From assembly GCF_046105845.1 (NCBI RefSeq), contig NZ_CP151004.1: a stretch of 64,000 bases of DNA, one strand, 5' to 3'. Both the position numbers and the translations under genes were made by a program. The DNA comes from Escherichia coli (GTDB lineage Bacteria; Pseudomonadota; Gammaproteobacteria; Enterobacterales; Enterobacteriaceae). This document shows, piece after piece, positions 20,775 to 34,995 of this stretch. Position 1 is the stretch's first letter, and each line of letters opens with the position of its first letter. The notes under the pieces are model-generated. The model worked only from the letters and a program-made list of their open reading frames with translations, made no database searches and was not told where the DNA came from.

Positions 20775-20785
20775 AGAGACGTGAC

Positions 20786-22853: not shown

Positions 22854-23014
22854 CATTCAAAACGTCTGGTTTGTCGGTCTGTGTAAGCATTCCGTCATGC
22901 AGAACAGGTTGTTTCGAATCATACAAATGATAATTTTCTTCTCATATGCGCATCTCTTATGAGCATAAACGTTATACTCTTCTGATTTATACATGTTTGC
23001 GGATGACATGATCA

Positions 23015-23992
23015 ATGGAAAAGAGAATGACGAAACAGAATAAAAACAGCCGTTGGCAGGGTTACGATCCTCGTTACATATACTCGCTCGTGGTCAGACG
23101 CTATTTTGCGGATATGAAAACCAAGATTGAGATTGCTGAGGAGCTTGGCGTTTCCCGCTTTAAAGTTGCCAGATTGATCGATGAGGCGATCGAACAGGAT
23201 TACGTGAGGTTTATCTTCCCTAAGCAGCAAGCGATGGATGAAGAAATCGCCAATAATCTACGGAAAAAATTTCATCTGGAAGATGCAATTGTTCTTTCAG
23301 TTGCTGAATCATGGACGACGCAAGAAGAACTCAATCACAAATTGGGTGAAGTCACCGCTGAATATCTTACGCAATCTCTTCATGAAGGTATGAAAGTGGG
23401 GATCGCCTGGGGACGTGTATTATCAAGTACGGTCAGTAAGTTGAGCAAGCTGCCTCCTTTAGACGTTGTGCAGTTATCTGGCGTACATCCGGGGATTGAG
23501 TTTAGTCAAGGGCCAATAGATCTTATTCATAAGATCGCTGCCATTTCGCAGGGAAAAGCGCACCCAATGTACGTGCCGATGTGGGTCGATGACGAAGAGC
23601 TTGCTGCCAGACTGGCAGGTGATCCTGCGGTATTAGATACACAGCAATATTACTCACAGTTGGATGTGGTTATCACCGGGATAGGTGACTGGAAATCAGG
23701 TTCTTCAAGCTTGTGTAAAATATTTCCGGATACCTGGTGCGAAGCTTTGTTTCAACAAGATATCGCTGCGGATGTGTGTATCTCGTTGGTCAGCAGGGAA
23801 GGGAAGATTCTTCATAGTCCTATTGAACGTCTGGGATTTGGCATTTCGACGGATCAACTACAAAAAGCCAAAAAAGTGATTGGTGTCGCCGGAGGGGAAG
23901 AGAAATATGAAGGCATTCTTGCTTCGCTGAAATCTGGACTTTTGAATGTCTTAATTACTGATTTTGATACGGCCATTAAACTTCTGGATTAA
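23015..23992 (+). CDS. SorC/DeoR-type sugar-binding transcriptional regulator
   Basis: 325 aa; N-terminal HTH (KIEIAEELGVSRFKVARLIDEA) and C-terminal sugar-phosphate-binding domain (VGIAWGRVL...VIGVAGGEEK). Confidence 0.8.
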   Translation: MEKRMTKQNKNSRWQGYDPRYIYSLVVRRYFADMKTKIEIAEELGVSRFKVARLIDEAIEQDYVRFIFPKQQAMDEEIANNLRKKFHLEDAIVLSVAESWTTQEELNHKLGEVTAEYLTQSLHEGMKVGIAWGRVLSSTVSKLSKLPPLDVVQLSGVHPGIEFSQGPIDLIHKIAAISQGKAHPMYVPMWVDDEELAARLAGDPAVLDTQQYYSQLDVVITGIGDWKSGSSSLCKIFPDTWCEALFQQDIAADVCISLVSREGKILHSPIERLGFGISTDQLQKAKKVIGVAGGEEKYEGILASLKSGLLNVLITDFDTAIKLLD

Positions 23993-24009
23993 TAGCCGTA
24001 TCTGTGAAG

Positions 24010-24038: not shown

Positions 24039-24043
24039 TAATT

Positions 24044-24502
24044 TCAGGATGCTGCGAGCGTATCCTCTACATATTTAGCCACGCGCGTTGCAGGTAAATT
24101 GCGGCAAGTCTCAACAAAGGCGTTATCCTGAAACAGTGTGAATAAACGACGCAATATCGACATATGTTGATCACTGGTGGCAAATGCCAGGTTAAACATA
24201 ATGCTACAATCAACTGTTAAAGCAGCATCTTCCATCTGTCCGAAAGTGACATCATTGGAGAAACGAACAATACTGATGCTGTTTACATTTACCAGCGTGT
24301 AATCGGCATGGGGAATGGCGATACCCTGACCGTTTGCCATCATTAATCCTGTCGGATAGCTTTTTTCACGTTCCAGACAGGCGTCAATGTATTCTGCAGT
24401 GATGTAGCCTTTTTCCAATAATTGCGTACCAGCAAAGGTGATCGCCGTTTGATAGTCGTTGATGCTGTTATCAACATCATTTACCAGAATTTCAAATTTC
24501 AT
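24044..24502 (-). CDS. PTS EIIA component (fructose/mannitol/galactitol type 2 family)
   Basis: 152 aa; conserved histidine context GQGIAIPHADYT typical of EIIA-2 domains. Confidence 0.8.
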   Translation of the reverse strand: MKFEILVNDVDNSINDYQTAITFAGTQLLEKGYITAEYIDACLEREKSYPTGLMMANGQGIAIPHADYTLVNVNSISIVRFSNDVTFGQMEDAALTVDCSIMFNLAFATSDQHMSILRRLFTLFQDNAFVETCRNLPATRVAKYVEDTLAAS

Positions 24503-24512
24503 TGCACACCTG

Positions 24513-24797
24513 TTATTTCAGTATCTCTTCTTTAACTGCAGCGAAAATCTCATCTTCGCCCAGACCAGTCAGTAATCCAGCGCCAACGATGACACGAGTA
24601 GTAATGGCCGGGTTATCGAGTTTGGTCGATGAAACCACCAGGTCATAGCTGTTGAAGGTATCGCTGGTGCATGCCATTAACGAAGATTTATCGACTTGCG
24701 CTTCAATTTTCTCTTCTTTCAGTAAGTCCTGCAGTACAGAGACCATGATGGAAGATGAGGCAATTCCGTTTCCGCAAACTACTAAGATTTTTTTCAT
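24513..24797 (-). CDS. PTS EIIB component (galactitol/lactose-type)
   Basis: 94 aa; N-terminal MKKILVVCGNGIASSS with phosphorylatable cysteine. Confidence 0.8.
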   Translation of the reverse strand: MKKILVVCGNGIASSSIMVSVLQDLLKEEKIEAQVDKSSLMACTSDTFNSYDLVVSSTKLDNPAITTRVIVGAGLLTGLGEDEIFAAVKEEILK

Positions 24798-24820
24798 TTG
24801 ATTATTCCTCTGTAAAAGAT

Positions 24821-26191
24821 TTAAAGCGCTTTTTCTAAATCCGTTTCAATCTGGCGACGTGATTTTTGTTTAATTAAGTATCCAATAGATAACAAAAGGA
24901 TACCTGCCATCACATAGCCAATGATTCCAACATGGCTCAGGGCGGCAAACAGACCAGTAAATGGATTCGCAGACGGGTTAAGCGAAGAGTACATCACGCT
25001 GGCATCCGGGTTTGTACCAAACTTCTGGAAGACTTCGTTGGTAGCCGGTGCCATCCACGATGCAATATACAGACCACCACCGAACAAAATGATCGAGGTC
25101 ACCCAGGTGCGAATAATGTTGCCATTGAAAACAGGCACCATGCAGGCAATGAAAAACACAAACTGAGAGAGGTCACCCAGTGGCATAACGCGGTTGCCGG
25201 GCAAGATCACTGCGAGGATCACAATCACCGGGATCAGTAATAATGCCGGGGCGATAACTGACGGATGACCCACAATCAGGGCAGTGTCCATTCCAACAGT
25301 GATTTGACGATCCGGGAAACGTTTGACCAGTTTTTTGCGTGCCACGTTGGAAAGCGGAACAAGCCCTTCCATCATGATAGAGGTCATACGTGGCAACAGA
25401 AGCATGACTGCAGCCAGATACATCCCTAACTGTAGGCTGGCAATTATGGTGTGGTAGGGGGATTTCCAGCCATAACCACAAAAGCCCAACAAAATACCAA
25501 TAATAAAACCAACCATAGTTGGATCGCCCAGAATGCCAAACCGTTTTTGAATAGTTTCGGCGGTCACATTCAGATTACGGAAGCCTGGGATGCGATCATA
25601 AATCCAGTTGAATGGATAAGCGAAAAGTAAGTAGGTATTGGCAACCGGGTGAGAGATCGCAACACCTTTTGGCAGGTTAAAGAATTTTTCGTTATTTTTA
25701 GCACCGAGATCGGCAGCGATCAGCGCCCAGACATGGAATAGCGCGGCGGTCAATGCGCCATACAGGAAGCTACCAGAATAGACGCCAACAATTGCCCCCA
25801 TTGACGCATTTTGATGAAGGTTGAAAACATCAACGTTAACACAGTCAGTCAGGCGGGCGACCAGCATTGCAATATTTACCGCAACACAGAGGGGAATAAT
25901 GATAGCGCCCATGCTGGAGCCAAATCCCATCACTGCAGTCGCTGCGCCACCAACATCGATGGCACTGAGCGAGGAACCTGTTGCTTCTGCTAATCCGGTG
26001 ACTGCCGGTTGCATTTTTTCCAGCATCAGTTTGATGGTCATGGTTAGCGCAATGAAACCAATGCCGACTTTGATGGCGGAGGAGATACATTCTGAAAGAG
26101 GACGGCCAAGTATCTTCATCAGTACCAGAAAGATGACCGGGATAAATATAAAATTTCCCAGATCGTTTATAAATTGCGTGATCAGTTCCAT
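24821..26191 (-). CDS. PTS EIIC permease, galactitol (GatC) family
   Basis: 456 aa polytopic membrane protein; resembles GatC/SgcC-type EIIC. Confidence 0.8.
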   Translation of the reverse strand: MELITQFINDLGNFIFIPVIFLVLMKILGRPLSECISSAIKVGIGFIALTMTIKLMLEKMQPAVTGLAEATGSSLSAIDVGGAATAVMGFGSSMGAIIIPLCVAVNIAMLVARLTDCVNVDVFNLHQNASMGAIVGVYSGSFLYGALTAALFHVWALIAADLGAKNNEKFFNLPKGVAISHPVANTYLLFAYPFNWIYDRIPGFRNLNVTAETIQKRFGILGDPTMVGFIIGILLGFCGYGWKSPYHTIIASLQLGMYLAAVMLLLPRMTSIMMEGLVPLSNVARKKLVKRFPDRQITVGMDTALIVGHPSVIAPALLLIPVIVILAVILPGNRVMPLGDLSQFVFFIACMVPVFNGNIIRTWVTSIILFGGGLYIASWMAPATNEVFQKFGTNPDASVMYSSLNPSANPFTGLFAALSHVGIIGYVMAGILLLSIGYLIKQKSRRQIETDLEKAL

Positions 26192-26194
26192 ACA

Positions 26195-26731
26195 TTAACC
26201 CTCAGATTTTTCATCATCTGGTCGGAAACCCATATTCCAGCGTACATCAGCGGGCTTAACCAGCAATGCATTATCGTTACGTTCAGCTTCTAGTAAGTTC
26301 TTTTTAGAATTTTCTCTGGCGGTGGTGAAGTCGAATGGGTTATCCAACCATGCATCGACAATCATTTTGCTGTATTCGAGATCGTTGACCCGGCAACCCA
26401 GTCCAATAACTTGTGCGTTATTGCTGAGTCGCGCCCGCTTTGCGGAGTAGGGGTTAGTAACCGCAACGGCTCTTATGCCCCAGTGTTTGTTGATCTGACA
26501 AGTAAAGCCAATGCCAGTCCCACAAATGTAAATTCCCAGACGGCACTCATCGCGTTGAATAATGCCTGCCATTTCGTCGGCTAGACGCGCGAAGTTATTG
26601 ACACCTTGTTCCTTACATGTGACGGGATCGTACACGATCTCCATGTTTTTCTCTTCTATGAGGTATTTTTTTATCTCCTCTTTACGTGCAAAACCTACAT
26701 CATCGCTTGCGATAGCAATCTTCGTTTTCAT
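26195..26731 (-). CDS. RpiB/LacAB-family sugar-phosphate isomerase with C-terminal extension
   Basis: 178 aa; motif GIYICGTGIGFTCQINKHWGIRAVAV resembles the RpiB active-site region; first gene of the minus-strand PTS operon. Confidence 0.75.
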   Translation of the reverse strand: MKTKIAIASDDVGFARKEEIKKYLIEEKNMEIVYDPVTCKEQGVNNFARLADEMAGIIQRDECRLGIYICGTGIGFTCQINKHWGIRAVAVTNPYSAKRARLSNNAQVIGLGCRVNDLEYSKMIVDAWLDNPFDFTTARENSKKNLLEAERNDNALLVKPADVRWNMGFRPDDEKSEG

Positions 26732-27079
26732 TTCATTTTGCCTGTCGTTAAGTAACTAAAGCCAAGTATGCTGTTGGTAAATATTGGTTGTCAATTGAGA
26801 TCTAAATCACAAAATTTATAACTGATTGATTTTTATGATAAAAAAAACCAATAAAAACAAATAAAAAATAAATTAAGCCAATTGAGACAAATTGGGATTG
26901 TACAGTGGCGTTGTAATGAATAATAAAAACTCATTTATTATCAATCGGATATATGGTTTTTGAACTATTGTCTTTATTGGGTTTATTTGTACTTTCCACT
27001 GTTAGTGTTTGTTTTTGTTTGCATCATCTGTGCTATGCTTGGCGTTTTCTAAGATGGGTAATAGATTTCAGGAGGAAGG
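26732..27079. promoter_or_regulatory. AT-rich divergent control region between the minus-strand PTS operon and the DeoR-family regulator gene
   Basis: About 350 bp, very AT-rich, no coding potential, flanked by divergent gene starts. Confidence 0.5.
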
Positions 27080-27835
27080 ATGTATCTGGTTGATGAAAGG
27101 CGAAAGTTAATACTTGAAGACTTAATGTCGGCAGGTACGGTCTATGTCAGTGATCTTGCACGAAAGTATGAAGTAACGTATGAGACCATCAGGAAAGATT
27201 TGACCCATCTTGAACAAAAAGGGCTGCTGATCAAAAGCCATGGTGGGGCGACTTTAAAGCAAAGGGCCATAGAGCATCCCTTTCAGGTCAGGGAAAAAGA
27301 AAATAACTCTTATAAGAAGGCGATAGCTCGTAAAGCGCTTGATTTCATTCCGCCTAATAGTTCGATGATTATCGGTACGGGCAGTACCACTTTTGAGCTG
27401 GCTAACCTGTTATGTATGAAGTCTGGGTTTAAAATCTTCACAGATTCGCTCCCCGTTGCCAGTGTGTTGATTGAATCTGACAATCAGGTTTTTCTCTTTG
27501 GCGGCGAACTGCGTAGAAAGAGTTCCTCAGTGTTTGGGGGGTGGGCGGTATCTATGATCAACGATATACATGTTGATCTCTGTTTCATTGGAACCGACGG
27601 TTTTAGTAACATGACTGGTCCATCGACGCCTTCTTCTTCTGATGCGTTTTTGGATCGCACGATAATTTCGCACTCAGACAAAAAATATATCCTCGGTGAT
27701 TACACCAAGTTTGAGCGCAGCAGTTTGTTTAAGATCTGCGACTGGTCGGAGATCACCGCCCTTATTACCAACGATCATGCCGACAAAGAGGGGATTGCCG
27801 AAGTCGCAAAATACACGTCAGTAATAACCTGTTAG
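27080..27835 (+). CDS. DeoR-family transcriptional regulator
   Basis: 251 aa; N-terminal HTH (VYVSDLARKYEVTYETIRKDLTHLEQKGLL) and C-terminal DeoR sugar-binding domain. Confidence 0.85.
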   Translation: MYLVDERRKLILEDLMSAGTVYVSDLARKYEVTYETIRKDLTHLEQKGLLIKSHGGATLKQRAIEHPFQVREKENNSYKKAIARKALDFIPPNSSMIIGTGSTTFELANLLCMKSGFKIFTDSLPVASVLIESDNQVFLFGGELRRKSSSVFGGWAVSMINDIHVDLCFIGTDGFSNMTGPSTPSSSDAFLDRTIISHSDKKYILGDYTKFERSSLFKICDWSEITALITNDHADKEGIAEVAKYTSVITC

Positions 27836-28010
27836 AACTCACTACGACACGCCTTCTCTCTTCGAATCAGCTTTGCCAAATGTAATCATTTCATAATTAT
27901 CAAGTGAGCATCCATGGCGATGCTTGCTTAGCGCCCTCTATTGAATACATCCTCTACATATTGCCAGTTTCACTTCATTTTTAGCGACGAAATCATTTTT
28001 TGAATCACGA

Positions 28011-28152
28011 TTTGCTCATATGAGCGTAAATAGTGTCGCCATTATGTGATTTTTTGTGATCTGGATTTAATTTCTCAGATCTCGTCATTTGTCCACAGGA
28101 TCGTTGTGCTATAACTGCTCATATGAAGGTTGTTCAATGCTCATGTGAGCAT
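28011..28152. promoter_or_regulatory. Three palindromic operator-like sites upstream of the plus-strand PTS operon
   Basis: tgctcatatgagcg (28013-28026), gctcatatga (28117-28126) and aatgctcatgtgagcatt (28137-28152) share the inverted-repeat core GCTCAT-ATGAGC. Confidence 0.5.
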
Positions 28153-28172
28153 TGGGGGTGAGGGGGAAGGAT

Positions 28173-28616
28173 ATGATATCGATCAGTGTTGCCGATGGTG
28201 CGGGACTACAGAACTACGATGCCGTGCTTGAACATATTTATAACACGCATCGTGAAACGAATACGGTGAAAGAGAGCTGGCTCAATGCTATGCGTAAACG
28301 CGAAGCGGAATATCCGACAGGAATAGAACTGGAAGGTTATTCTATCGCTATACCACACTGTGATAGTGAACATGCGAATCAACCGGCTATTTACATCATC
28401 CGTCTGCCAGACGCAATACCTGTGAACAGGGCTGATGAAGATGGAATATTGTGGGTCAGACTGGTCGTTAATATCATTGTTACGGATCCTGCTGACCAGC
28501 TTCGATTGTTAAAGTCATTATTTAACCATCTCCAAAATGAAGAATTCTACCAAAACTTACTGACACTTCCCGTCGAGGATGCAAAAGCACTTTTTGTATC
28601 CAGGATAATCCAATAG
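28173..28616 (+). CDS. PTS EIIA component (type 2 family)
   Basis: Probable start at second ATG (ggaagga ribosome-binding site); conserved histidine context YSIAIPHCDSE. Confidence 0.8.
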   Translation: MISISVADGAGLQNYDAVLEHIYNTHRETNTVKESWLNAMRKREAEYPTGIELEGYSIAIPHCDSEHANQPAIYIIRLPDAIPVNRADEDGILWVRLVVNIIVTDPADQLRLLKSLFNHLQNEEFYQNLLTLPVEDAKALFVSRIIQ

Positions 28617-28634
28617 TAAAAACTGGAGTTTATT

Positions 28635-28928
28635 ATGATTAATATTCTTGTTGCTTGTGGTAGCGGTGTCGCTACATCTACGCTTGCTGCTGATGAAGTG
28701 AAGTCAGTATGTGCTGAATATGGTATTACGGCATTTAAAATCAACAAATGCAGTATGGCTGAACTTTCTTCTGAGATGGCTCATGCAGATATTGTACTCA
28801 CAACTAATAATTATAAAGGTGATATTGGGAAACCACATATGAGCGTTGCAGGTTTTGTAACGGGTATTAATGAAGGAGCATTACGCAAGAAATTAGGAGA
28901 GTTATTAACTGAATTAGCAAATAGCTAA
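28635..28928 (+). CDS. PTS EIIB component (galactitol-type)
   Basis: 97 aa; MINILVACGSGVATST with phosphorylatable cysteine. Confidence 0.8.
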   Translation: MINILVACGSGVATSTLAADEVKSVCAEYGITAFKINKCSMAELSSEMAHADIVLTTNNYKGDIGKPHMSVAGFVTGINEGALRKKLGELLTELANS

Positions 28929-28948
28929 ACCTGACAGGAATAATAAAA

Positions 28949-30202
28949 ATGGAAATGTTGAAAAATTTAATGGAAACAATCACCGGAATGGGGGCGACTG
29001 CAATACTGCCGCTGGTGATATTTATTTTAGGTCTGGTGTTCAGAATGAAACCAGGTGCCGCGATCAAGTCGGGCATCACCGTCGGTATTGGTTTTATTGG
29101 TTTAGGTTTAGTTGTTGGTTTATTAAATAGTTCATTACAGCCAGCTATCGAGTATTACTCAAAAGTAGGCAGTGGTTTTACGGTTGCAGATATTGGTTGG
29201 CCAGCAGTCGGTGCGGCTGCATGGGTAGCACCTTTTGCCGCATTAGTGATACCAGTTGGCATCGTACTTAACCTGATTCTGGTGCGCCTGAAATTAACCA
29301 AAACGTTAAATGTTGATATCTGGAACTATATGCATTTTTTAGTTCCGGGCGCTCTGGCATATTTTGTGTTCGACAGTTTTATCATCGGCTTCTCTGTCGC
29401 GGTGGCTTTGAGTATTGCGGCCCTGTTTATTGGCGATTTGATTGCGCCCAGATGGCAAAAATATTATGGACTCGAGGGAACAACCTGTACCACGATGATT
29501 CATATCGGCTGGACTCTACCGTTCGCCTGGGTAGTAAATAAAATCATTGATTACATCCCTGGGTTAAATAAGTTAGATGTTGACTTAAACAGTGTGCAAA
29601 AACGCCTGGGTGTCTTTGGTGAACCTGCAATTATCGGTGTTATCGTTGGCGCATTACTCGGAGTTTTAACGAAACAGGCAATTACCACAATTGTTCCCAT
29701 GGCGATGGGGGTTGCTGGTGTAATGGTATTGTTACCTAAAGTGGTCGGTGTGCTGATGGAAGGTCTTAACCCGATTGGGAAAAGTGCCAAAGAAATCATG
29801 CAAAAACAGATGGGTAAAGATGCTGAATTAAACATCGGTATGGATTGTGCACTGGCGTTGGGGGATCCGGCGACGGTCACCGTGACAGTCATTACCATTC
29901 CTTTAACTATGCTATGTGCTCTGGTATTGCCTGATATTAAGATCTTCCCAATTGGCGTATTGATGTCAATTATTTATATGACCACCATGACCGTAATGGC
30001 GAGCAACGGTAACGTGATTCGTTCGATTATCTCGACCTTGTTATTCTGCGTTGTAGTGATGTATTTAGGCGGTTATGTCGCACCAGGGGCAACGCAATTT
30101 TTAGCTGGAGCCGGTGTAGGCTTGCAAGGACAAGGTACTGATTTTGTATTAACCGGCCCGTGGGAAATTTTAACCTATTGGTTGAGCACCGTATTACATT
30201 GA
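28949..30202 (+). CDS. PTS EIIC permease, galactitol (GatC) family
   Basis: 417 aa polytopic membrane protein of GatC/SgcC type. Confidence 0.8.
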   Translation: MEMLKNLMETITGMGATAILPLVIFILGLVFRMKPGAAIKSGITVGIGFIGLGLVVGLLNSSLQPAIEYYSKVGSGFTVADIGWPAVGAAAWVAPFAALVIPVGIVLNLILVRLKLTKTLNVDIWNYMHFLVPGALAYFVFDSFIIGFSVAVALSIAALFIGDLIAPRWQKYYGLEGTTCTTMIHIGWTLPFAWVVNKIIDYIPGLNKLDVDLNSVQKRLGVFGEPAIIGVIVGALLGVLTKQAITTIVPMAMGVAGVMVLLPKVVGVLMEGLNPIGKSAKEIMQKQMGKDAELNIGMDCALALGDPATVTVTVITIPLTMLCALVLPDIKIFPIGVLMSIIYMTTMTVMASNGNVIRSIISTLLFCVVVMYLGGYVAPGATQFLAGAGVGLQGQGTDFVLTGPWEILTYWLSTVLH

Positions 30203-30224
30203 TTTAATAATCTGGAGTTTTAAC

Positions 30225-30869
30225 ATGGCAAAAATATTACCTTCTATATTTGGCGCGGATATTTTACGCCTGAAAGATGAAATTCATTTTCTGGAAGAGG
30301 AACAAACCGAAATATTGCACGTTGATTTAATGGATGGCACTTACGTCAGTAATATTGCCTTTGGCCCAAATCAAATTGCAGCAATGAAAAAAGCCAGTTC
30401 GATGATCTTTGACGTGCATATGATGCTGGCAAATCCTGAGCGACATATTGATGATGTAATCAATACCGGGGCGGAGATGATTTCTGTACATTATGAGTCG
30501 ACGCCACATGTGCATTATATTATTCAAAAAATCAAAAAAGCGGGGCGCAAAGCAGGTGTTGTGCTTAATCCTGGGACACCTGAATCTGTCATCGAGTATT
30601 TATTAGATGATATTGATTATATATTGTTAATGACAATTAATCCGGGGCAACTAGGCCAGACATTTATTCATAAAAGCCTGGAGAAAATCCGTAACACCAA
30701 AAAATTGATATCTGGCAGAGATATTCAAATTGAAGTGGATGGTGGCGTTAATCTTGATAATGTGAAACAAGTTAAAGAAGCGGGGGCTGACCTTATTGTT
30801 GTTGGCGGTGCATTATTTAACAAACAGCCTCATGAAAGTTATCAGGCATTAAAAATCGCTGTTCAGTGA
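30225..30869 (+). CDS. Ribulose-phosphate 3-epimerase family protein (ketose-phosphate 3-epimerase)
   Basis: 214 aa; N-terminal LPSIFGADILRLKDE matches the RPE SILSAD signature region; metal-binding His/Asp residues present. Confidence 0.8.
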   Translation: MAKILPSIFGADILRLKDEIHFLEEEQTEILHVDLMDGTYVSNIAFGPNQIAAMKKASSMIFDVHMMLANPERHIDDVINTGAEMISVHYESTPHVHYIIQKIKKAGRKAGVVLNPGTPESVIEYLLDDIDYILLMTINPGQLGQTFIHKSLEKIRNTKKLISGRDIQIEVDGGVNLDNVKQVKEAGADLIVVGGALFNKQPHESYQALKIAVQ

Positions 30870-30964
30870 TCATAATCTAAAAATTTTACATCCAGCTAAG
30901 TGAGGTTTTCGATTTCATATCGGGAGGAAAACCCCAACTAAAAAGTCTTTAATGGAGAAAAGTA

Positions 30965-31717
30965 ATGAGTAATTTTGCAGGTAAAGTGGTTTTAGTTACC
31001 GGAGGTGCTCACGGTATTGGCAAAGGGATAGCTAAACAATTTGCTGATCGTGGTGCACATACTGTTATTGTTGACTATAACGAAGAGAACGGCAAGGCCA
31101 CTGCAGCAGAGTTAACTTTTGGCGATGTTAAATCGCTGTTTGTTAAAACAGATGTCTCCGATCCACAGGCATTAGTGGATGTACGGGAAAAAGTATTTGC
31201 TACCTTTGGTCGTATTGATGTGTTGATATTAAATGCCGGTGTGGCATTTGCCAATAAAGTTAACAATATTTCTTTTGAGGAATGGAATAAGACTATCGCA
31301 ATTAACTTATCGGGATTATTTAATACCGTTAAGGCATTTTATGATGATTTCCTGACAAATAAGGGATCTATTGTTTATATCTCATCGGGATCAGCGCTTT
31401 CGGGGACTGGGGGCGGCGTGAGCTATCCTGCCAGTAAAGCGGGAGGCGAAGGATTGATTCGTGGTCTGGCAAAAGAGTTAGGACCAAAAGGCGTAAATGT
31501 TAATGCGATTGCTCCCCGCTTAATAGACACCGGAGATATGATGCGGGTCAACTATCCAACACAAGCCGATTTAGACGCTGTCCTGGAAAAAATACCCGTC
31601 CGTCGTCTGGGGACTATCGATGATGTGGCTAACCTGGCAATATTTTTGGCAGATAAAGATAACTCTTATATTCAGGGACAAACCATTTTAATGGATGGTG
31701 GCCGGACTATTGCTTAA
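30965..31717 (+). CDS. Short-chain dehydrogenase/reductase (SDR) family oxidoreductase
   Basis: 250 aa; Rossmann motif VTGGAHGIGKG and catalytic YPASK. Confidence 0.85.
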   Translation: MSNFAGKVVLVTGGAHGIGKGIAKQFADRGAHTVIVDYNEENGKATAAELTFGDVKSLFVKTDVSDPQALVDVREKVFATFGRIDVLILNAGVAFANKVNNISFEEWNKTIAINLSGLFNTVKAFYDDFLTNKGSIVYISSGSALSGTGGGVSYPASKAGGEGLIRGLAKELGPKGVNVNAIAPRLIDTGDMMRVNYPTQADLDAVLEKIPVRRLGTIDDVANLAIFLADKDNSYIQGQTILMDGGRTIA

Positions 31718-31732
31718 AAAGGGAGAGGAAAA

Positions 31733-32293
31733 ATGAGTGTTCAGGAAAATACTCTTAATATTCTGCATGAATTAGAGAGTAATGCACTGAAGATTGACGA
31801 TGCTCAGGCTGCACAGTTTATTTCGCAAATCAGAAATGCCCGGCATATTTTTTTGCAGGGAGCTGGGCGCAGTGGCATTGCTATTCGCGCTTTTGCTAAT
31901 CGCTTGCTGCATTTAGGTTTTTCAGTAAGCGTTGTGGGAGAAATATCATCACCGCATACCCAACCTGGAGATCTATTAATTATTGGGTCAGGCAGTGGTG
32001 AAACTACCAGTTTAAAAAGTCTGGCACAAAAAGCAGTTGATAGCGGAGTAAACGTAGCTCTGGTAACTATGAAAGCAGATTCGACGATCGGTAAATTAGC
32101 TCAATCTGTGTTGGTACTACCAGGAAGTGTGAAAGACGATAACAATCGTGTTGCAGGCGCTTTCGCACAACCAATGGGATCGGCTTTTGAGCAGCTCTGC
32201 TTTATTACTTATGATGCAATTGTTCTGGAGTTGATGTCTGAACTGGGTGAAAGCAGTGCCACAATGTTTACCCGACACGCTGATCTGGAATGA
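31733..32293 (+). CDS. SIS-domain sugar-phosphate isomerase (6-phospho-3-hexuloisomerase-like)
   Basis: 186 aa; SIS-domain features (FLQGAGRSG ... LLIIGSGSGETT) and size typical of PHI-type isomerases. Confidence 0.7.
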   Translation: MSVQENTLNILHELESNALKIDDAQAAQFISQIRNARHIFLQGAGRSGIAIRAFANRLLHLGFSVSVVGEISSPHTQPGDLLIIGSGSGETTSLKSLAQKAVDSGVNVALVTMKADSTIGKLAQSVLVLPGSVKDDNNRVAGAFAQPMGSAFEQLCFITYDAIVLELMSELGESSATMFTRHADLE

Positions 32294-32317
32294 CCAAAGA
32301 GTTGGTAATTAGAAAGT

Positions 32318-32346
32318 AAAAAGCCTGCTTGAAAGCAGGCTTTTTT
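32318..32346. terminator. Bidirectional rho-independent terminator between the SIS gene and tRNA-Asn
   Basis: aaaagcctgcttgaaagcaggctttttt: perfect hairpin flanked by A-run and T-run. Confidence 0.8.
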
Positions 32347-32351
32347 GAATT

Positions 32352-32427
32352 TGGCTCCTCTGACTGGACTCGAACCAGTGACATACGGATTAACAGTCCG
32401 CCGTTCTACCGACTGAACTACAGAGGA
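32352..32427 (-). tRNA. asnV: tRNA-Asn (anticodon GUU)
   Basis: Reverse complement is the 76-nt E. coli tRNA-Asn TCCTCTGTAGTTCAGTCGGTAGAACGGCGGACTGTTAATCCG...GAGGAGCCA. Confidence 0.95.
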
Positions 32428-32752
32428 ATCGTGTGAACGGGGCGCATATTAATGGCAGTGCATGGTGATGTCAAAGGGTGAAATGCATTTTTTTGTTTGT
32501 TTGCTGTCAATTTCAACAAAGTGGTGAGCTTTCAATCTTATTGGTAATGAACCATCGTGGTGCATACCCTCCTTTTATGGGGCAGGGGAACGCGACAGCT
32601 GATAAAAAGAGCCAATGACGAACCTATCATAATCTCTTATTTGACAGTTGGTTAGCTTGTACATCAACGCCAAAATAAAACTGGCAAGCATCTTGCAATC
32701 TGGTTGTAAGTAATGGCGGCACTTGGGCCGATTCTTAAAAACCGGAGGCAAC

Positions 32753-33670
32753 ATGAACTTCAGACGCCTGAAATACTTCGTAAAAATTGTAGATATTGGT
32801 AGCCTGACCCAGGCTGCTGAAGTATTGCATATCGCACAACCAGCGCTCAGTCAGCAGGTTGCCACACTGGAAGGTGAGTTAAATCAACAACTTTTGATTC
32901 GCACAAAACGGGGCGTTACGCCAACTGACGCCGGAAAAATTCTCTATACCCATGCGCGGGCCATTTTACGTCAGTGTGAGCAGGCCCAACTGGCGGTGCA
33001 TAACGTTGGTCAGGCATTATCGGGGCAAGTCTCGATTGGCTTTGCGCCAGGAACCGCTGCGTCATCCATCACCATGCCCTTATTACAGGCGGTTCGCGCT
33101 GAATTCCCGGAGGTCGTTATCTATCTTCATGAAAATAGCGGTGCAGTACTTAACGAAAAACTGATAAATCATCAACTCGATATGGCGGTGATTTATGAGC
33201 ATTCCCCTGTGGCTGGTGTATCCAGCCAGGCTTTGCTGAAAGAAGATCTTTTCCTGGTAGGAACTCAAGATTGCCCGGGGCAAAGCGTTGATGTTAATGC
33301 TATTGCGCAAATGAACCTCTTTCTCCCCAGTGATTACAGTGCTATTAGACTTCGTGTTGATGAGGCTTTTTCCCTACGGCGACTCACGGCAAAAGTCATT
33401 GGTGAAATTGAGTCTATTGCCACGCTTACCGCAGCGATTGCTAGCGGCATGGGCGTTGCAGTATTACCCGAATCGGCCGCGCGTTCGTTATGTGGCGCAG
33501 TAAATGGTTGGATGTCACGCATTACCACTCCTTCCATGAGTCTCTCTTTGTCATTAAATTTACCCGCCAGAGCGAACTTATCGCCACAGGCACAGGCAGT
33601 GAAAGAGTTGTTAATGTCAGTGATGAGTTCTCCAGTGATGGAAAAAAGGCAGTGGCAATTGGTGAGCTAA
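32753..33670 (+). CDS. nac: Nitrogen assimilation control protein Nac (LysR family)
   Basis: Internal start MNFRRLKYFVKIVDIGSLTQAAEVLHIAQPALSQQV (LysR HTH); 305 aa. Confidence 0.92.
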   Translation: MNFRRLKYFVKIVDIGSLTQAAEVLHIAQPALSQQVATLEGELNQQLLIRTKRGVTPTDAGKILYTHARAILRQCEQAQLAVHNVGQALSGQVSIGFAPGTAASSITMPLLQAVRAEFPEVVIYLHENSGAVLNEKLINHQLDMAVIYEHSPVAGVSSQALLKEDLFLVGTQDCPGQSVDVNAIAQMNLFLPSDYSAIRLRVDEAFSLRRLTAKVIGEIESIATLTAAIASGMGVAVLPESAARSLCGAVNGWMSRITTPSMSLSLSLNLPARANLSPQAQAVKELLMSVMSSPVMEKRQWQLVS

Positions 33671-33771
33671 GCGTTATATCGGGATGGAATAAGATGCGGG
33701 TTTTTATTATTTGTTATGCCGGGCATTAGACTTTAACAATAACGGGAAATCTGAACTGCCCGGAGTTTACC

Positions 33772-34722
33772 GTGAATTTCCAACAAATAAAGATAATCCG
33801 CGAGGCTGCACGTCAGGATTACAACCTGACAGAGGTTGCGAATATGCTTTTTACCTCACAGTCCGGCGTCAGCCGTCATATTCGGGAACTGGAGGATGAA
33901 CTTGGCATCGAAATATTTGTTCGACGAGGTAAGCGACTGCTGGGCATGACTGAACCGGGCAAAGCATTACTGGTCATTGCAGAACGTATTCTGAATGAAG
34001 CCAGTAATGTTCGTCGGCTTGCAGACCTGTTTACCAACGATACGTCTGGCGTTCTCACTATTGCAACGACGCATACTCAGGCACGTTATAGCTTGCCAGA
34101 GGTCATTAAAGCTTTTCGCGAACTTTTCCCGGAGGTTCGGCTGGAGCTAATCCAGGGTACGCCACAGGAAATTGCGACGTTGTTGCAAAATGGCGAAGCT
34201 GATATTGGTATCGCCAGCGAGCGTTTGAGTAATGACCCGCAGCTCGTCGCCTTCCCGTGGTTTCGTTGGCACCATAGTTTGCTTGTTCCACTCGATCATC
34301 CCTTGACGCAAATTACACCGTTGACGCTGGAATCAATAGCGAAGTGGCCGTTAATTACTTACCGACAGGGGATTACGGGGCGCTCACGTATTGATGACGC
34401 ATTTGTCCGCAAAGGTTTGCTGGTAGATATTGTATTAAGTGCGCAGGATTCTGATGTCATTAAAACCTATGTTGCTCTTGGGTTGGGGATTGGATTAGTT
34501 GCCGAACAATCCAGCGGCGAACAAGAGGAAGAGAATTTAATCCGTCTTGATACGCGGCATCTTTTCGATGCCAATACTGTATGGTTGGGACTGAAGCGAG
34601 GGCAACTTCAACGTAACTATGTCTGGCGCTTTCTGGAACTTTGTAATGCAGGACTGTCAGTTGAGGATATCAAGCGCCAGGTGATGGAGAACAGTGAAGA
34701 GGAAATTGATTATCAGATATAG
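33772..34722 (+). CDS. cbl: Cbl, LysR-family regulator of sulfonate-sulfur utilisation
   Basis: 316 aa beginning MNFQQIKIIREAARQDYNLTEVANMLFTSQSGVSRHIRELE. Confidence 0.92.
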   Translation: MNFQQIKIIREAARQDYNLTEVANMLFTSQSGVSRHIRELEDELGIEIFVRRGKRLLGMTEPGKALLVIAERILNEASNVRRLADLFTNDTSGVLTIATTHTQARYSLPEVIKAFRELFPEVRLELIQGTPQEIATLLQNGEADIGIASERLSNDPQLVAFPWFRWHHSLLVPLDHPLTQITPLTLESIAKWPLITYRQGITGRSRIDDAFVRKGLLVDIVLSAQDSDVIKTYVALGLGIGLVAEQSSGEQEEENLIRLDTRHLFDANTVWLGLKRGQLQRNYVWRFLELCNAGLSVEDIKRQVMENSEEEIDYQI

Positions 34723-34723
34723 C

Positions 34724-34752
34724 AAAAAGCCCGCTATAAAAGCGGGCTTTTC
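34724..34752. terminator. Bidirectional rho-independent terminator between cbl and tRNA-Asn
   Basis: aaaagcccgctataaaagcgggcttttc hairpin. Confidence 0.75.
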
Positions 34753-34759
34753 AGAAATT

Positions 34760-34835
34760 TGGCTCCTCTGACTGGACTCGAACCAGTGACATACGGATTA
34801 ACAGTCCGCCGTTCTACCGACTGAACTACAGAGGA
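34760..34835 (-). tRNA. asnU: tRNA-Asn (anticodon GUU)
   Basis: Identical 76-nt tRNA-Asn sequence on the minus strand. Confidence 0.95.
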
Positions 34836-34995
34836 ATCGCTGTTGAGGCACATCTTAACGGCGAAAAATCTTTTGTCAAACCCGATTTTTAAATTTCCCA
34901 ACTGTTTGCCGTTTCTATCAACAGTTTGTTGCATTTGCAGACAATTTGTTGGCGAAAATCTTTGCAGCTTTGCTGATTCTCCCTCATTATTTGAA

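What the first reader, a model, noticed from the sequence alone, without database searches (positions are those of the whole stretch)
27080..32293. Accessory cluster 2: DeoR regulator, PTS IIA-IIB-IIC, ketose-phosphate 3-epimerase, SDR dehydrogenase and SIS isomerase — candidate uncharacterised catabolic route
The gene order suggests a complete route: PTS uptake and phosphorylation, SDR oxidation, 3-epimerisation, then SIS-type isomerisation, which could deliver a hexitol or ketose phosphate to fructose-6-phosphate. It resembles the sgc operon but carries SDR and PHI-like genes instead of sgcQ and sgcX. The segment is visibly AT-richer than the flanking backbone, consistent with horizontal acquisition.
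Basis: inference. Interest (0 to 1): 0.6.

Follow-up and report, generated by a model that had tools for sequence, protein, structure and literature searches.

The report
Uncharacterised PTS sugar-alcohol breakdown cassette
The seven genes are real and intact, and six of them form a horizontally spread cassette (a galactitol-type sugar transporter plus a dehydrogenase, an epimerase and a hexulose isomerase) kept together in four bacterial phyla; its substrate has never been determined, and it probably feeds an unusual sugar alcohol into fructose-6-phosphate by an undescribed route.

Summary
Seven intact + strand genes occupy 27080-32293: DeoR regulator, Gat-family PTS IIA/IIB/IIC, Rpe-family epimerase, classical SDR and HxlB-type 6-phospho-3-hexuloisomerase (PHI). 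They are the right half of a 9.4-kb, 42.8% GC island between ldtA and tRNA-Asn (asnV). About 4% of complete E. coli genomes carry it.

New here: IIA-IIB-IIC-epimerase-SDR-PHI is a conserved cassette. In 37 species-level loci from Enterobacterales, Firmicutes, Selenomonadales and Actinobacteria these six genes are the only constant neighbours. Gene order is shuffled and the regulator is replaced. The cassette also sits on conjugative Klebsiella plasmids and onion-pathogen plasmids. Catalytic motifs are intact and the genes are under purifying selection. Every cassette epimerase lacks the Phe of the canonical Rpe loop NPGFGGQ. The DeoR gene probably belongs to the neighbouring PTS/RpiB module; the SorC-family gene at 23015-23992 is the likelier regulator.

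Ten literature searches found no characterisation. It is not an orthologue of sgc, gat, als or hxlAB.

Best model (inferred, about 0.4): a polyol phosphate, most likely a hexitol phosphate, is oxidised by the SDR. PHI and the epimerase then invert C4 through a 3-hexulose-6-phosphate intermediate, yielding fructose-6-phosphate. The substrate is unresolved.

The parts
22939..22965 (+). Two weak copies (2 and 3 mismatches) of the palindrome TGCTCATATGAGCA, just upstream of the SorC-family gene; possible autoregulatory operator
   Evidence: Weak on its own: 6 matches in the window against 2.9 expected by chance.
23015..23992 (+). SorC-family sugar-binding regulator; likely cognate regulator of the cassette in Enterobacterales, although it lies 4 kb upstream of it here
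   Evidence: NCBIfam gives only sub-threshold matches to B. subtilis DeoR and LsrR models; PGAP names it 'sugar-binding transcriptional regulator' and homologues carry Pfam Sugar-bind. In 7 cassette-only Enterobacterales loci a 75-81% identical homologue sits directly upstream of IIA, co-directional with it.
24044..26731 (-). Neighbouring module 1: a second Gat-family IIA/IIB/IIC plus an RpiB-like isomerase. It is a separate unit that often travels with the cassette
   Evidence: It lies next to the cassette in 10 of 37 loci. It stands alone with DeoR and a second hxlB on IncF plasmids.
27080..27835 (+). DeoR/GlpR-family regulator, nearest to the AgaR/GatR-type models; probably the regulator of module 1 rather than of the cassette
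   Evidence: AgaR model 170.7 bits, below cut-off. It lies adjacent and divergent to the RpiB-like gene in an E. hormaechei plasmid, Enterococcus and Gilliamella. It is absent from cassette-only loci, except for a 36-codon 3' remnant in Brenneria.
28013..28151 (+). Promoter/operator region with three copies of TGCTCAT(A/G)TGAGC, at 28013, 28116 and 28138
   Evidence: The same motif, with the same spacing of about 103 and 22 bp, lies upstream of IIA in all 13 Enterobacterales loci checked. It is absent from the DeoR-RpiB intergenic region.
28173..28616 (+). PTS enzyme IIA, Gat family
   Evidence: (GatA model 134.3 against cut-off 139). It is 38% identical to K-12 GatA.
28635..28928 (+). PTS enzyme IIB, Gat family
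   Evidence: 34-35% identical to GatB and SgcB
28949..30202 (+). PTS enzyme IIC, Gat family permease
   Evidence: EIIC-GAT 322.5 bits, below cut-off 542; 31-34% identical to SgcC and GatC
30225..30869 (+). Rpe-family ketose-phosphate epimerase with a non-canonical capping loop (NPGQLGQ in place of NPGFGGQ)
   Evidence: H32, D34, H65 and D172 and the Met cushions are conserved. It is 37% identical to E. coli Rpe, 32% to AlsE and 29% to SgcE.
30965..31717 (+). Classical NAD-type short-chain dehydrogenase; presumed polyol-phosphate dehydrogenase and the most conserved protein of the cassette
   Evidence: TGxxxGxG, D37, NAG, S141, Y154 and K158 are conserved. The clade is tight: the next relative in a 1.8-billion-protein library is 48% identical.
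31733..32293 (+). 6-phospho-3-hexuloisomerase (HxlB/PHI)-type SIS isomerase
   Evidence: The best PDB match is B. subtilis YckF (E = 9e-44, about half the residues identical by eye). The motifs GAGRSG, GSGSGET, QPMGSAFEQ and HADLE are shared with four solved PHI-family proteins.
32318..32345 (.). Bidirectional hairpin terminator. It is backbone sequence (the native ldtA/asnV terminator) that now ends the operon; the island's right edge is at about 32296
32352..32427 (-). tRNA-Asn (asnV), the right-hand landmark of the insertion site

Best explanation
The finding is the enzyme-bearing half of a horizontally acquired carbohydrate island. Its core is an autonomous six-gene cassette.

Proposed pathway:
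1. A galactitol-family PTS (IIA, IIB, IIC) takes up and phosphorylates a polyol, most probably a hexitol.
2. The NAD-dependent SDR oxidises the polyol phosphate to a keto-sugar phosphate.
3. The Rpe-family epimerase and the HxlB-type isomerase together convert that product to fructose-6-phosphate through a 3-hexulose-6-phosphate intermediate.

The most economical version is a C4 inversion by carbonyl migration. A D-ketohexose-6-phosphate with the 'wrong' C4 configuration, such as tagatose-6-phosphate from galactitol-1-phosphate, is isomerised by PHI running backwards to D-lyxo-3-hexulose-6-P. The epimerase then inverts the carbon between the carbonyl and the phosphate (C4), the positional analogue of C3 in xylulose-5-P/ribulose-5-P. 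This gives D-arabino-3-hexulose-6-P, which PHI converts to F6P. If the SDR instead oxidises C3 of D-talitol-6-P or D-iditol-6-P, the same intermediates are reached directly.

Expression is probably repressed through three or four TGCTCATATGAGCA palindromes upstream of IIA. The likely repressor is the SorC-family regulator at 23015-23992.

Shown: gene content, family membership, intact catalytic motifs, conserved linkage, mobility, purifying selection and the conserved operator-like motif.
Inferred: the substrate class, the regiochemistry of the SDR, the C4-epimerase role, the order of steps and the regulator assignment.
For: 1. The linkage is conserved. A scan of one genome per species found 37 loci with an SDR at least 61% identical. 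These include Enterobacter, Citrobacter, Klebsiella, Brenneria, Rahnella, Providencia, Pantoea, Erwinia, Gilliamella, Enterococcus, Streptococcus, Lactobacillus, Paenibacillus, Enterocloster, Anaerostipes, Catenisphaera, Selenomonadales and Austwickia. ORF clustering shows only SDR (37 loci), PHI (35), epimerase (34), IIC (33), IIB (32) and IIA (28 or more) as constant neighbours. Gene order is shuffled in several lineages. Regulators are swapped: SorC in 12 loci, DeoR in 11, Mga/PRD type in 15 (also 12, 13, 19-21).

2. The cassette stands alone with only a regulator in Pantoea, Paenibacillus and Petromonas. The three enzymes plus the PTS therefore appear sufficient.

3. PHI is present throughout and is a true HxlB-type protein, even in the lineages where it is only about 37% identical. 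Scores are 209.7 and 207.2 against a cut-off of 160, and the motifs are shared with YckF, AF1796, an HPS-PHI fusion and MJ1247. Its only known reaction is the 3-hexulose-6-P to fructose-6-P isomerisation (established knowledge of the RuMP pathway). This argues for a 3-ulose intermediate and F6P as the product.

4. The epimerase keeps the Rpe catalytic set and Rpe-type phosphate motifs. All 36 cassette epimerases replace the Phe of NPGFGGQ with Q, T, R, E or H. E. coli Rpe, five solved Rpe structures and AlsE all keep that Phe. This is consistent with an Rpe-like reaction on a non-canonical substrate.

5. The context points to hexitols. The PTS is Gat family, with IIA nearly reaching the GatA cut-off; PGAP calls the Klebsiella homologue gatA. 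The tagatose-6-P genes lacABCD lie directly upstream in two Enterococcus species. In Anaerostipes the cassette is embedded with a GatD-like dehydrogenase, a PfkB kinase and a GatY-type aldolase.

6. The genes are functional. Between the window and E. coli A42 there are 68 synonymous and 10 non-synonymous codon differences.

7. The operator-like palindromes are conserved in number and spacing in 13 Enterobacterales loci.

8. An analogous operon occurs in Streptococcus uberis (mannitol-type PTS, mannitol-1-P dehydrogenase homologue, Rpe, PHI; PMC2657157). The polyol-P dehydrogenase / Rpe / PHI trio therefore recurs with non-homologous parts.
Against: - No experiment or phenotype links the cassette to any substrate.
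- The C4-epimerase role and the reverse PHI step have no biochemical precedent that I know of.
- PHI equilibrium strongly favours F6P (established knowledge), so the 3-ulose pool would be small.
- E. coli normally already has gatYZABCD for galactitol, so a second galactitol route gives no obvious gain.
- In Anaerostipes a GatD-like enzyme, a kinase and an aldolase would by themselves suffice for galactitol. The SDR trio there presumably serves another substrate.
- Module 1 (PTS + RpiB-like + PHI) occurs without any Rpe-like gene on plasmids. The model does not explain this unless host enzymes complete the pathway.
- The epimerase passes NCBI's rpe equivalog cut-off, so it may simply be a ribulose-5-P epimerase.
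- The Phe replacement has not been interpreted structurally here.
Confidence: 0.4

Rival explanations
1. Pentitol operon. The PTS takes up D-arabitol, xylitol or ribitol. The SDR oxidises the pentitol phosphate to xylulose-5-P or ribulose-5-P. The epimerase is an ordinary ribulose-5-P 3-epimerase. The SIS protein, with the RpiB-like enzyme next door, boosts pentose-phosphate interconversion. This would parallel the Listeria and Lactobacillus casei pentitol PTS operons, which carry their own rpe and rpiB.
For: The epimerase scores above the rpe equivalog cut-off, and its best structural relatives are true Rpe enzymes. Its phosphate motifs are Rpe-type. An RpiB-like gene lies in the adjacent module. 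Gat-family PTSs are known to take pentitols in Listeria (my own knowledge: Kentache et al. 2016; not retrieved here). The E. raffinosus locus lies in a polyol-rich region with a second Rpe and a mannitol-dehydrogenase-family gene.
Against: PHI has no role. By stereochemical analogy it would make arabinose-5-P from ribulose-5-P, not ribose-5-P. That is a dead end, and useless in the Gram-positive hosts. Yet PHI is kept in 35 of 37 loci and scores as genuine HxlB. All cassette epimerases depart from the canonical NPGFGGQ loop. The cassette works without an RpiB-like gene in most loci (27 of 37). Neighbouring genes in Enterococcus and Anaerostipes belong to hexitol/tagatose metabolism, not pentose metabolism.
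Confidence: 0.2
2. Tetritol route analogous to the Brucella erythritol pathway. Erythritol or threitol is phosphorylated by the PTS and oxidised by the SDR to a 3-tetrulose-4-P. This is racemised by the epimerase, shifted to erythrulose-4-P by the PHI-type isomerase, and converted to erythrose-4-P by an RpiB-type isomerase from module 1 or the host.
For: The reaction types match the Brucella pathway one to one: dehydrogenase, racemase, 3-to-2 keto isomerase, RpiB (my own knowledge: Barbier et al. 2014; not retrieved here). This model would also explain module 1 standing alone (PTS + PHI + RpiB-like acting on erythrulose-1-P) and the frequent pairing of the two modules. The RpiB-like protein hits the D-erythrulose-4-P isomerase model about as well as the RpiB models, all below cut-off.
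Against: In a 3-tetrulose-4-P the carbonyl is next to the phosphorylated carbon and the chiral centre lies on the far side. That does not fit the geometry of either Rpe or PHI, and both keep their canonical catalytic and phosphate motifs. The Brucella enzymes belong to other folds. No tetritol-related gene accompanies the cassette in any locus.
Confidence: 0.1
3. A hexitol such as allitol is oxidised at C2 to D-allulose-6-P, which the epimerase (AlsE-like) converts to F6P. The SIS protein is an accessory aldose-ketose isomerase.
For: SDRs are typically polyol 2-dehydrogenases (established knowledge). The epimerase has a sub-threshold AlsE match (177.7 bits).
Against: The AlsE cut-off of 271 is not reached. 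The DGG and G-G-A motifs are Rpe-type, whereas AlsE has DGS and an extra residue. The model leaves the invariably conserved, genuinely HxlB-type PHI with nothing to do.
Confidence: 0.08
4. The cluster is a cryptic or decaying passenger in E. coli, with no present function in this strain.
For: It is present in only about 4% of complete genomes. E. coli has lost the second hxlB of the ancestral two-module island. The window's epimerase has Leu instead of the usual Pro in the capping loop.
Against: All seven ORFs are intact. Synonymous codon differences outnumber non-synonymous ones 68 to 10 against strain A42. The operator motifs are conserved.
Confidence: 0.04

Closest known systems
E. coli K-12 sgc operon (sgcREAQCBX)
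   Same: It has a DeoR-type regulator, Gat-family IIA/IIB/IIC and an Rpe-family epimerase. It is also functionally uncharacterised.
   Different: Proteins are only 29-35% identical. There are no sgcQ or sgcX homologues. sgc has no SDR and no PHI. SgcE has yet another loop (EPDGQGQ).
Galactitol (gatYZABCD) and tagatose-6-phosphate pathways
   Same: The PTS family is the same, with IIA almost at the GatA cut-off. The logic is polyol to polyol-phosphate to NAD-dependent oxidation. In some genomes the cassette lies next to lacABCD or GatD/PfkB/GatY genes.
   Different: The window has no GatD (Zn-dependent MDR), no kinase and no GatY/GatZ aldolase. An SDR, an Rpe-like enzyme and PHI take their place, implying entry at F6P rather than cleavage of tagatose-1,6-bisphosphate.
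Ribulose monophosphate pathway genes hxlA-hxlB (Bacillus subtilis; methylotrophs)
   Same: The SIS protein is an HxlB-type PHI. It passes the equivalog cut-off, about half its residues match YckF by eye, and all motifs are shared. Rpe is also a RuMP-cycle enzyme.
   Different: There is no hexulose-phosphate synthase in the window or in 36 of 37 loci. The context is a PTS operon in non-methylotrophs, so the 3-hexulose-6-P must come from a sugar, not from formaldehyde.
D-allose pathway (AlsE, RpiB/AlsI) of E. coli K-12
   Same: It combines an RpiB-type isomerase with an Rpe-family 3-epimerase acting on hexulose-6-phosphates to give F6P.
   Different: The epimerase is 32% identical to AlsE and below the AlsE cut-off. 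Uptake is by PTS, not by an ABC transporter plus kinase. The SDR and PHI are extra.
Pentitol PTS operons of Listeria monocytogenes (lmo2659-2668) and Lactobacillus casei (my own knowledge)
   Same: They combine a Gat- or Man-family PTS, a polyol-phosphate dehydrogenase and an operon-borne rpe/rpiB. Firmicute copies have MtlR/LicR-type regulators.
   Different: Those operons use MDR dehydrogenases, carry transketolase, transaldolase or phosphoketolase, and have no PHI.
Streptococcus uberis SUB0285-0289 operon (PMC2657157)
   Same: It has a polyol-type PTS, a polyol-phosphate dehydrogenase, Rpe and PHI. The enzyme trio is the same by function.
   Different: The PTS is of the mannitol family and the dehydrogenase of the mannitol-dehydrogenase family, so both are non-homologous to the ones here. 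It is also uncharacterised. I did not retrieve its sequences.

Membership tests
PTS Gat (galactitol) family, TC 4.A.5 | Separate IIA (PTS_EIIA_2), IIB (PTS_IIB) and IIC (EIIC-GAT) proteins | tested here: met
   NCBIfam gives EIIC-GAT E=3.7e-96, GatA model E=2.7e-39 and GatB model E=1.9e-13. Homologues carry Pfam PF03611, PF02302 and PF00359.
Galactitol-specific PTS (GatABC equivalogs) | Score at or above the curated equivalog cut-offs | tested here: not met
   IIA scores 134.3 against 139, IIB 50.7 against 95 and IIC 322.5 against 542. Identity to K-12 GatA/B/C is 34-38%.
gat operon (galactitol catabolism) | GatD Zn-dependent dehydrogenase and GatY/GatZ tagatose-bisphosphate aldolase in the operon | tested here: not met
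   The island contains no such ORFs.
sgc operon | Orthologues of sgcE, sgcA, sgcB, sgcC, sgcQ and sgcX | tested here: not met
   Identities are 29-35% only. sgcQ and sgcX are absent.
Ribulose-phosphate 3-epimerase (Rpe, TIGR01163) | HMM score above cut-off, plus metal ligands and acid/base pair (His, Asp, His, Asp) and the Met cushion | tested here: met
   Score is 232.8 against a cut-off of 212.6. H32, D34, H65, D172, M36, M67 and M136 are invariant in alignment A1.
Ribulose-phosphate 3-epimerase (canonical Ru5P enzyme) | Conserved beta6 capping loop NPGFGGQ | tested here: not met
   The window has NPGQLGQ. All 36 cassette epimerases have Q, T, R, E or H in place of Phe. E. coli Rpe and five solved Rpe structures have NPGFGGQ; AlsE keeps the Phe in DPGFAGQ.
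Ribulose-phosphate 3-epimerase | Catalytic activity on ribulose-5-P/xylulose-5-P | not testable with these tools
   This needs an enzyme assay.
D-allulose-6-phosphate 3-epimerase (AlsE) | Equivalog score, and the AlsE-type phosphate loops (DGS; an extra residue after beta8) | tested here: not met
   Score is 177.7 against a cut-off of 271. The motifs are DGG and VGGA-LF as in Rpe.
6-phospho-3-hexuloisomerase (HxlB/PHI, TIGR03127) | HMM score above cut-off and the SIS/PHI motifs shared by solved PHI-family proteins | tested here: met
   Score is 209.7 against a cut-off of 160. The match to B. subtilis YckF has E=9e-44. GAGRSG, FANRLxHLG, VGE, GSGSGET, QPMGSAFE and HADLE align with YckF, AF1796, 9LJ9 and MJ1247.
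RuMP formaldehyde-fixation module (hxlAB) | A 3-hexulose-6-phosphate synthase (HxlA) partner gene | tested here: not met
   There is no HxlA in the window. Only 1 of 37 related loci (L053) has an HxlA nearby.
Classical short-chain dehydrogenase/reductase | TGxxxGxG, NAG, and the catalytic N-S-Y-K tetrad | tested here: met
   T12-G13...G19, N90-A91-G92, N114, S141, Y154 and K158 are invariant in alignment A4. D37 suggests NAD preference.
Known polyol-phosphate dehydrogenases (SrlD, GatD, MtlD, pentitol-P dehydrogenases) | Equivalog-level similarity to a characterised enzyme | tested here: not met
   The best NCBIfam and PDB matches are generic (FabG, glucose 1-dehydrogenase, BudC), all below cut-off. 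The next relative in the 50%-clustered library is 48% identical, in an unrelated context. SrlD was not compared pairwise.
Genomic island at a tRNA gene | Integrase, direct repeats of the tRNA 3' end | tested here: not met
   The island has no integrase ORF. The junction alignment shows clean replacement between the ldtA 3' end and the native terminator, with no duplicated tRNA segment.

The most novel reading that the evidence does not exclude
The HxlB-type isomerase and the modified Rpe-type epimerase together form a cofactor-independent 'carbonyl-walking' C4 epimerase system for ketohexose-6-phosphates: 2-ulose to 3-ulose, inversion at C4, then back to F6P. This would give bacteria an aldolase-independent, kinase-independent route from galactitol/tagatose-6-phosphate, or from rare hexitols such as D-talitol or D-iditol, to fructose-6-phosphate. 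It would be a new physiological role for a RuMP enzyme outside C1 metabolism, spread by plasmids across four phyla.
Probability: 0.25. Interest if true: 0.75.

Novelty: new variant of a known kind. Interest (0 to 1): 0.55.

Why it matters
PTS-linked polyol operons are a familiar kind of system. This enzyme trio (SDR, modified Rpe, genuine PHI without a hexulose-phosphate synthase) matches no characterised pathway, yet it is conserved as a unit from E. coli and Klebsiella plasmids to Enterococcus, bee-gut Lactobacillus and Gilliamella, gut Clostridia and an actinobacterium.

Identifying its substrate would do three things:
- It would assign a function to genes now auto-annotated 'rpe', 'hxlB' and 'FabG/SDR' in thousands of genomes.
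- It would probably reveal a new route into glycolysis and a non-methylotrophic role for PHI.
- It could explain a niche trait of gut and plant-associated strains. The cassette sits on conjugative IncF plasmids in K. pneumoniae and in the onion-virulence-associated plasmid region of Pantoea.

A tagatose-6-P to F6P conversion by two small cofactor-free enzymes would also interest rare-sugar biotechnology.

Tried and rejected
- Orthology to a characterised pathway was rejected for sgc, gat, als, hxlAB and pentitol operons.

- More distant SDR relatives were examined for informative contexts. The 1.8-billion-protein representative search shows a tight clade, with the next relative at 48% identity. 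The contexts of P0122 and P0132 were unrelated or too short.

- All ten permitted literature searches were run. None found a characterisation. One search was poorly designed, because its polyol terms swamped 'hxlB'. Hits in E. coli BEN2908, L. casei Zhang and L. pentosus concerned other hxlB loci.

- I looked for mobile-element hallmarks at the island borders and found none.

- I first considered that module 1 had been inserted into an ancestral SorC-cassette unit. The DeoR 3' remnant in Brenneria shows that at least there the two-module form came first and module 1 was deleted. The direction of events elsewhere is open.

- I considered that module 1 depends on the cassette's epimerase. This was weakened when module 1 turned out to stand alone on about 20 plasmids.

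- The HxlA gene near the SDR in locus L053 could indicate that 3-hexulose-6-P is the pathway node. The genes there are not a clear operon and HxlR-type regulators are nearby, so I treat it as weak evidence.

- Sigma-70 promoter scanning gave no more sites than chance.

- Structure prediction and fold search were not run. Without ligand modelling they would not separate the hypotheses.

Full report
WHAT IS THERE. The window is E. coli-type backbone: pdu, cobUST, ldtA, then an island, then asnV, nac, cbl, asnU and yeeO. NCBIfam assigns them as follows:
- a DeoR/GlpR regulator, nearest the AgaR model at 170.7 bits, below cut-off;
- galactitol-family PTS IIA (134.3 against a GatA cut-off of 139), IIB, and IIC (322.5 against 542);
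- ribulose-phosphate 3-epimerase (232.8, above the cut-off of 212.6; the AlsE model reaches only 177.7 against 271);
- a classical SDR with only generic matches;
- 6-phospho-3-hexuloisomerase (209.7, above the cut-off of 160).

The SIS protein aligns end to end with B. subtilis YckF/HxlB (E = 9e-44, about half the residues identical by eye). It shares the GAGRSG, GSGSGET, QPMGSAFEQ and HADLE motifs with four solved PHI-family proteins. The epimerase keeps His32, Asp34, His65, Asp172 and the methionine cushion. The SDR keeps TGxxxGxG, Asp37, NAG, Ser141, Tyr154 and Lys158.

THE ISLAND. In K-12 only 55 bp separate ldtA from asnV. In the window about 9.4 kb (roughly 22854-32295) are inserted there. 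The right junction lies a few bases after the SIS stop codon. The hairpin at 32318-32345 that now ends the operon is the native backbone terminator. There is no integrase and no duplicated tRNA end. GC is 42.0% for the cluster and 42.8% for the island, against 48-51% in the flanks.

The island has two modules. Module 1 is a SorC-family regulator (23015-23992, + strand) followed, on the - strand, by IIA, IIB, IIC and an RpiB-like isomerase (24044-26731). Module 2 is the finding. Of 5426 complete E. coli genomes, 240 carry module 1 and 226 carry module 2, with best DNA identities of 98.7% and 97.9%. Against strain A42 the seven genes differ at 68 synonymous and 10 non-synonymous codons. They are maintained by selection.

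A CONSERVED, MOBILE CASSETTE. The SDR has 80-93% identical homologues in other Enterobacterales. Unusually, it also has 78-84% identical homologues in Enterococcus, Paenibacillus and other Firmicutes. In a library of 1.84 billion 50%-identity representatives the clade is isolated, with the next relative at 48% identity.

A scan of one genome per species returned 37 loci with an SDR at least 61% identical:
- Enterobacterales: Enterobacter, Citrobacter, Pseudocitrobacter, Klebsiella oxytoca, Brenneria, Rahnella, Providencia, Pantoea, Erwinia, Izhakiella, Entomohabitans, Gilliamella;
- Firmicutes: Enterococcus, Streptococcus cuniculi, Lactobacillus helsingborgensis and relatives, Paenibacillus, Hespellia, Enterocloster, Anaerostipes, Breznakia, Catenisphaera, Peptoniphilaceae, Petromonas;
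- Selenomonadales, and an Austwickia (Actinobacteria).

I mapped the twelve island proteins onto these loci and clustered all ORFs. The only genes that always accompany the SDR are PHI (35 loci), the epimerase (34), IIC (33), IIB (32) and IIA (28 or more). Most gaps are contig ends. The order is IIA-IIB-IIC-Rpe-SDR-PHI in E. coli. It is Rpe-SDR-IIC-IIA-PHI-IIB in Enterocloster, IIA-IIB-IIC-Rpe-PHI-SDR in Lactobacillus, IIB-IIC-IIA-Rpe-PHI-SDR in Austwickia, and SDR-IIC-IIA-Rpe-PHI-IIB in Catenisphaera.

The regulator is SorC-type in 12 loci, DeoR-type in 11 and Mga/PRD (MtlR/LicR)-type in 15. In Pantoea, Paenibacillus and Petromonas the six genes plus a regulator stand alone, in Petromonas between transposase genes. 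Content conserved through rearrangement, regulator replacement and inter-phylum transfer is strong evidence that the six genes form one functional unit and are sufficient for it.

The cassette is also on 36 plasmids. These comprise 15 from Klebsiella, 15 from Pantoea, 3 from Enterobacter ludwigii (including pEcWSU1), and one each from Erwinia persicina, Duffyella and E. coli; ten are conjugative. A K. pneumoniae IncFIB/IncFII plasmid carries the whole two-module island. DNA identity between the E. coli island and other Enterobacterales is only 70-75%. The high protein identity therefore reflects constraint, not very recent transfer.

REGULATOR REASSIGNMENT. Where module 1 occurs alone (IncF plasmids of E. 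hormaechei and K. pneumoniae), it consists of the DeoR gene divergent from RpiB-IIC-IIB-IIA-hxlB. The same DeoR-RpiB pairing is seen in Enterococcus and Gilliamella. Where the cassette occurs without module 1 in Enterobacterales, the SorC-family gene lies directly upstream of IIA. This holds in 7 loci, and Brenneria still carries a 36-codon 3' remnant of DeoR between them.

Upstream of IIA the window has three copies of TGCTCAT(A/G)TGAGC, at 28013, 28116 and 28138. The same motif, with the same spacing, occurs in all 13 Enterobacterales loci examined. It is absent from the DeoR-RpiB intergenic region. Two weaker copies precede the SorC gene. I therefore think SorC (23015-23992), not the DeoR gene included in the finding, is the cassette's cognate regulator. 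This is inference.

IS IT KNOWN? Ten full-text searches found no functional study. The only paper that lists the cassette is the Pantoea ananatis pan-genome study. There it is part of the plasmid-borne 'onion virulence region A', with automatic names and no experiment. A 2009 genome paper notes an analogous, also unstudied, operon in Streptococcus uberis: mannitol-type PTS, mannitol-1-P dehydrogenase homologue, Rpe and PHI.

The cassette is not an orthologue of sgc (29-35% identity; sgcQ and sgcX absent). It is not gat (no GatD or GatYZ), not als and not hxlAB (no HxlA).

HOW IT PROBABLY WORKS. Any model must give each of the three enzymes an essential role, because all three are retained everywhere. 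PHI's only known reaction is D-arabino-3-hexulose-6-P to fructose-6-P, and the cassette proteins are genuine PHIs even at about 37% identity to the window protein. This points to a 3-ulose intermediate and to F6P as the exit.

The epimerase has Rpe-type phosphate loops (DGG; G-G-A without AlsE's extra residue). It should therefore act on the carbon two positions from the phosphorylated carbon, next to a carbonyl three positions away. In a 3-hexulose-6-P that carbon is C4. All 36 cassette epimerases replace the phenylalanine of the otherwise invariant NPGFGGQ capping loop with Gln, Thr, Arg, Glu or His. I read this as adaptation to a substrate larger or different at the C1 end, although I could not test that structurally.

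Putting these together gives the following sequence. The PTS makes a polyol phosphate and the SDR oxidises it. The product has the D configuration at C5 but the wrong configuration at C4. PHI and the epimerase correct C4 via D-lyxo-3-hexulose-6-P and then D-arabino-3-hexulose-6-P, and PHI delivers F6P.

The stereochemistry is self-consistent for tagatose-6-P, which has the same C3 configuration as F6P. Tagatose-6-P would arise from galactitol-1-P or D-talitol-6-P by C2 oxidation. It is equally consistent for direct C3 oxidation of D-talitol-6-P or D-iditol-6-P.

Hexitol context supports this:
- the PTS is Gat family, with IIA almost at the GatA cut-off;
- lacABCD lies directly upstream in two Enterococcus species;
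- a GatD-like dehydrogenase, a psicose-epimerase-like protein, a PfkB kinase and a GatY-type aldolase share the operon in Anaerostipes.

I put this model at about 0.4. The general statement that this is a PTS-coupled sugar or polyol catabolic operon I would put near 0.9.

RIVALS AND WEAKNESSES.
- Pentitol operon (0.2). It fits the rpe score and the neighbouring RpiB-like gene. It leaves PHI without a sensible role, because by analogy PHI would form arabinose-5-P.
- Tetritol route mirroring the Brucella erythritol pathway (0.1). It matches the reaction types and would explain module 1 standing alone. It does not fit the substrate geometry of either Rpe or PHI.
It makes PHI superfluous, and the epimerase is not AlsE-like.
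- Cryptic passenger (0.04). This is contradicted by the purifying selection.

Points that my preferred model does not explain:
- E. coli already has a galactitol pathway.
- The Anaerostipes operon would not need the trio for galactitol.
- Module 1 (PTS + RpiB-like + PHI) exists without any epimerase.
- The SDR is far more conserved (71-80%) than its partners (35-52%) in distant lineages.

VERDICT. It needs correction on the sgc analogy, the AlsE analogy and the regulator. The cassette is a new variant of a known kind of system. Its wide, tightly conserved distribution and the out-of-place PHI make it a worthwhile target for simple growth and enzyme experiments.

Noticed in passing
window 23015-26731: Module 1 is a second Gat-family PTS (IIA, IIB, IIC) with an RpiB-like isomerase and a SorC-family regulator. 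In Klebsiella, Citrobacter and Enterococcus it also carries its own hxlB. E. coli lacks that gene: only 51 bp separate the SorC stop (23992) from the IIA stop (24044). With the DeoR gene it stands alone on about 20 IncF plasmids of K. pneumoniae and E. hormaechei. It is unclear which substrate needs only an aldose-ketose isomerase and a PHI.
   Followed up: partly
window 30651-30653 (codon 143 of the epimerase): The window's epimerase has Leu in the loop NPGQ-L-GQ. E. coli A42, Klebsiella and most close relatives have Pro at this position. It is one of only four amino-acid differences from A42 and lies in the active-site capping loop.
   Followed up: partly
L038/L039 (Anaerostipes), about 3776-14088: An extended operon holds an Mga/PRD regulator, IIC, IIA, IIB, a GatD-like MDR dehydrogenase, the epimerase, the SDR, PHI, a D-psicose-3-epimerase-like TIM barrel, a PfkB hexose kinase and a GatY-type tagatose-bisphosphate aldolase. 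It is a larger hexitol/ketohexose locus built around the same trio.
   Followed up: partly
L053 (Erysipelotrichaceae MAG) 7120-10753: A 61% identical SDR lies beside a divergently transcribed cassette-type epimerase. A genuine 3-hexulose-6-phosphate synthase (HxlA, 237 bits against a cut-off of 200) and an aldo-keto reductase are nearby, but there is no PHI and no Gat PTS. This may hint that 3-hexulose-6-P is the pathway node, or it may be coincidence.
   Followed up: partly
L020 (Brenneria roseae) 6712-6819: A 36-codon remnant of the DeoR gene's 3' end lies between the SorC gene and IIA. It shows that module 1 and DeoR were deleted from a two-module ancestor in this lineage.
   Followed up: yes
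plasmids NC_016515.1 (E. ludwigii pEcWSU1), CP020945 (P. ananatis), CP022726 (Erwinia persicina), CP134727 (P. agglomerans): The cassette recurs on plasmids of bacteria isolated from diseased onion. In P. ananatis it lies in 'onion virulence region A'. It also occurs in bee-gut and other insect-gut bacteria (Gilliamella, Lactobacillus helsingborgensis, Breznakia, Entomohabitans). This ecological pattern suggests a plant-derived substrate.
   Followed up: no
L025/L007 (Providencia vermicola), about 7176-7677: No IIA gene is detectable in the roughly 500-bp gap between DeoR and IIB of the cassette, so the IIA gene may be lost or degraded there.
   Followed up: no
window 13219-22853 and 32352-36659: The backbone context carries a pdu (propanediol) operon, pocR and cobUST upstream of ldtA, where K-12 has IS5 and the CP4-44 prophage remnant beyond cobU. 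Three tRNA-Asn genes (32352, 34760, 36584) bracket nac, cbl and yeeO. This is the tRNA-Asn-rich region where other E. coli strains carry islands; strain A42 has fyuA of the yersiniabactin island nearby.
   Followed up: no
window 28040-28065: A TGTGA-containing element (TTATGTGATTTTTTGTGATCTGG) lies between the first and second palindromes. It is also present at the equivalent place in Brenneria and may be a CRP site. This was seen by eye only.
   Followed up: no
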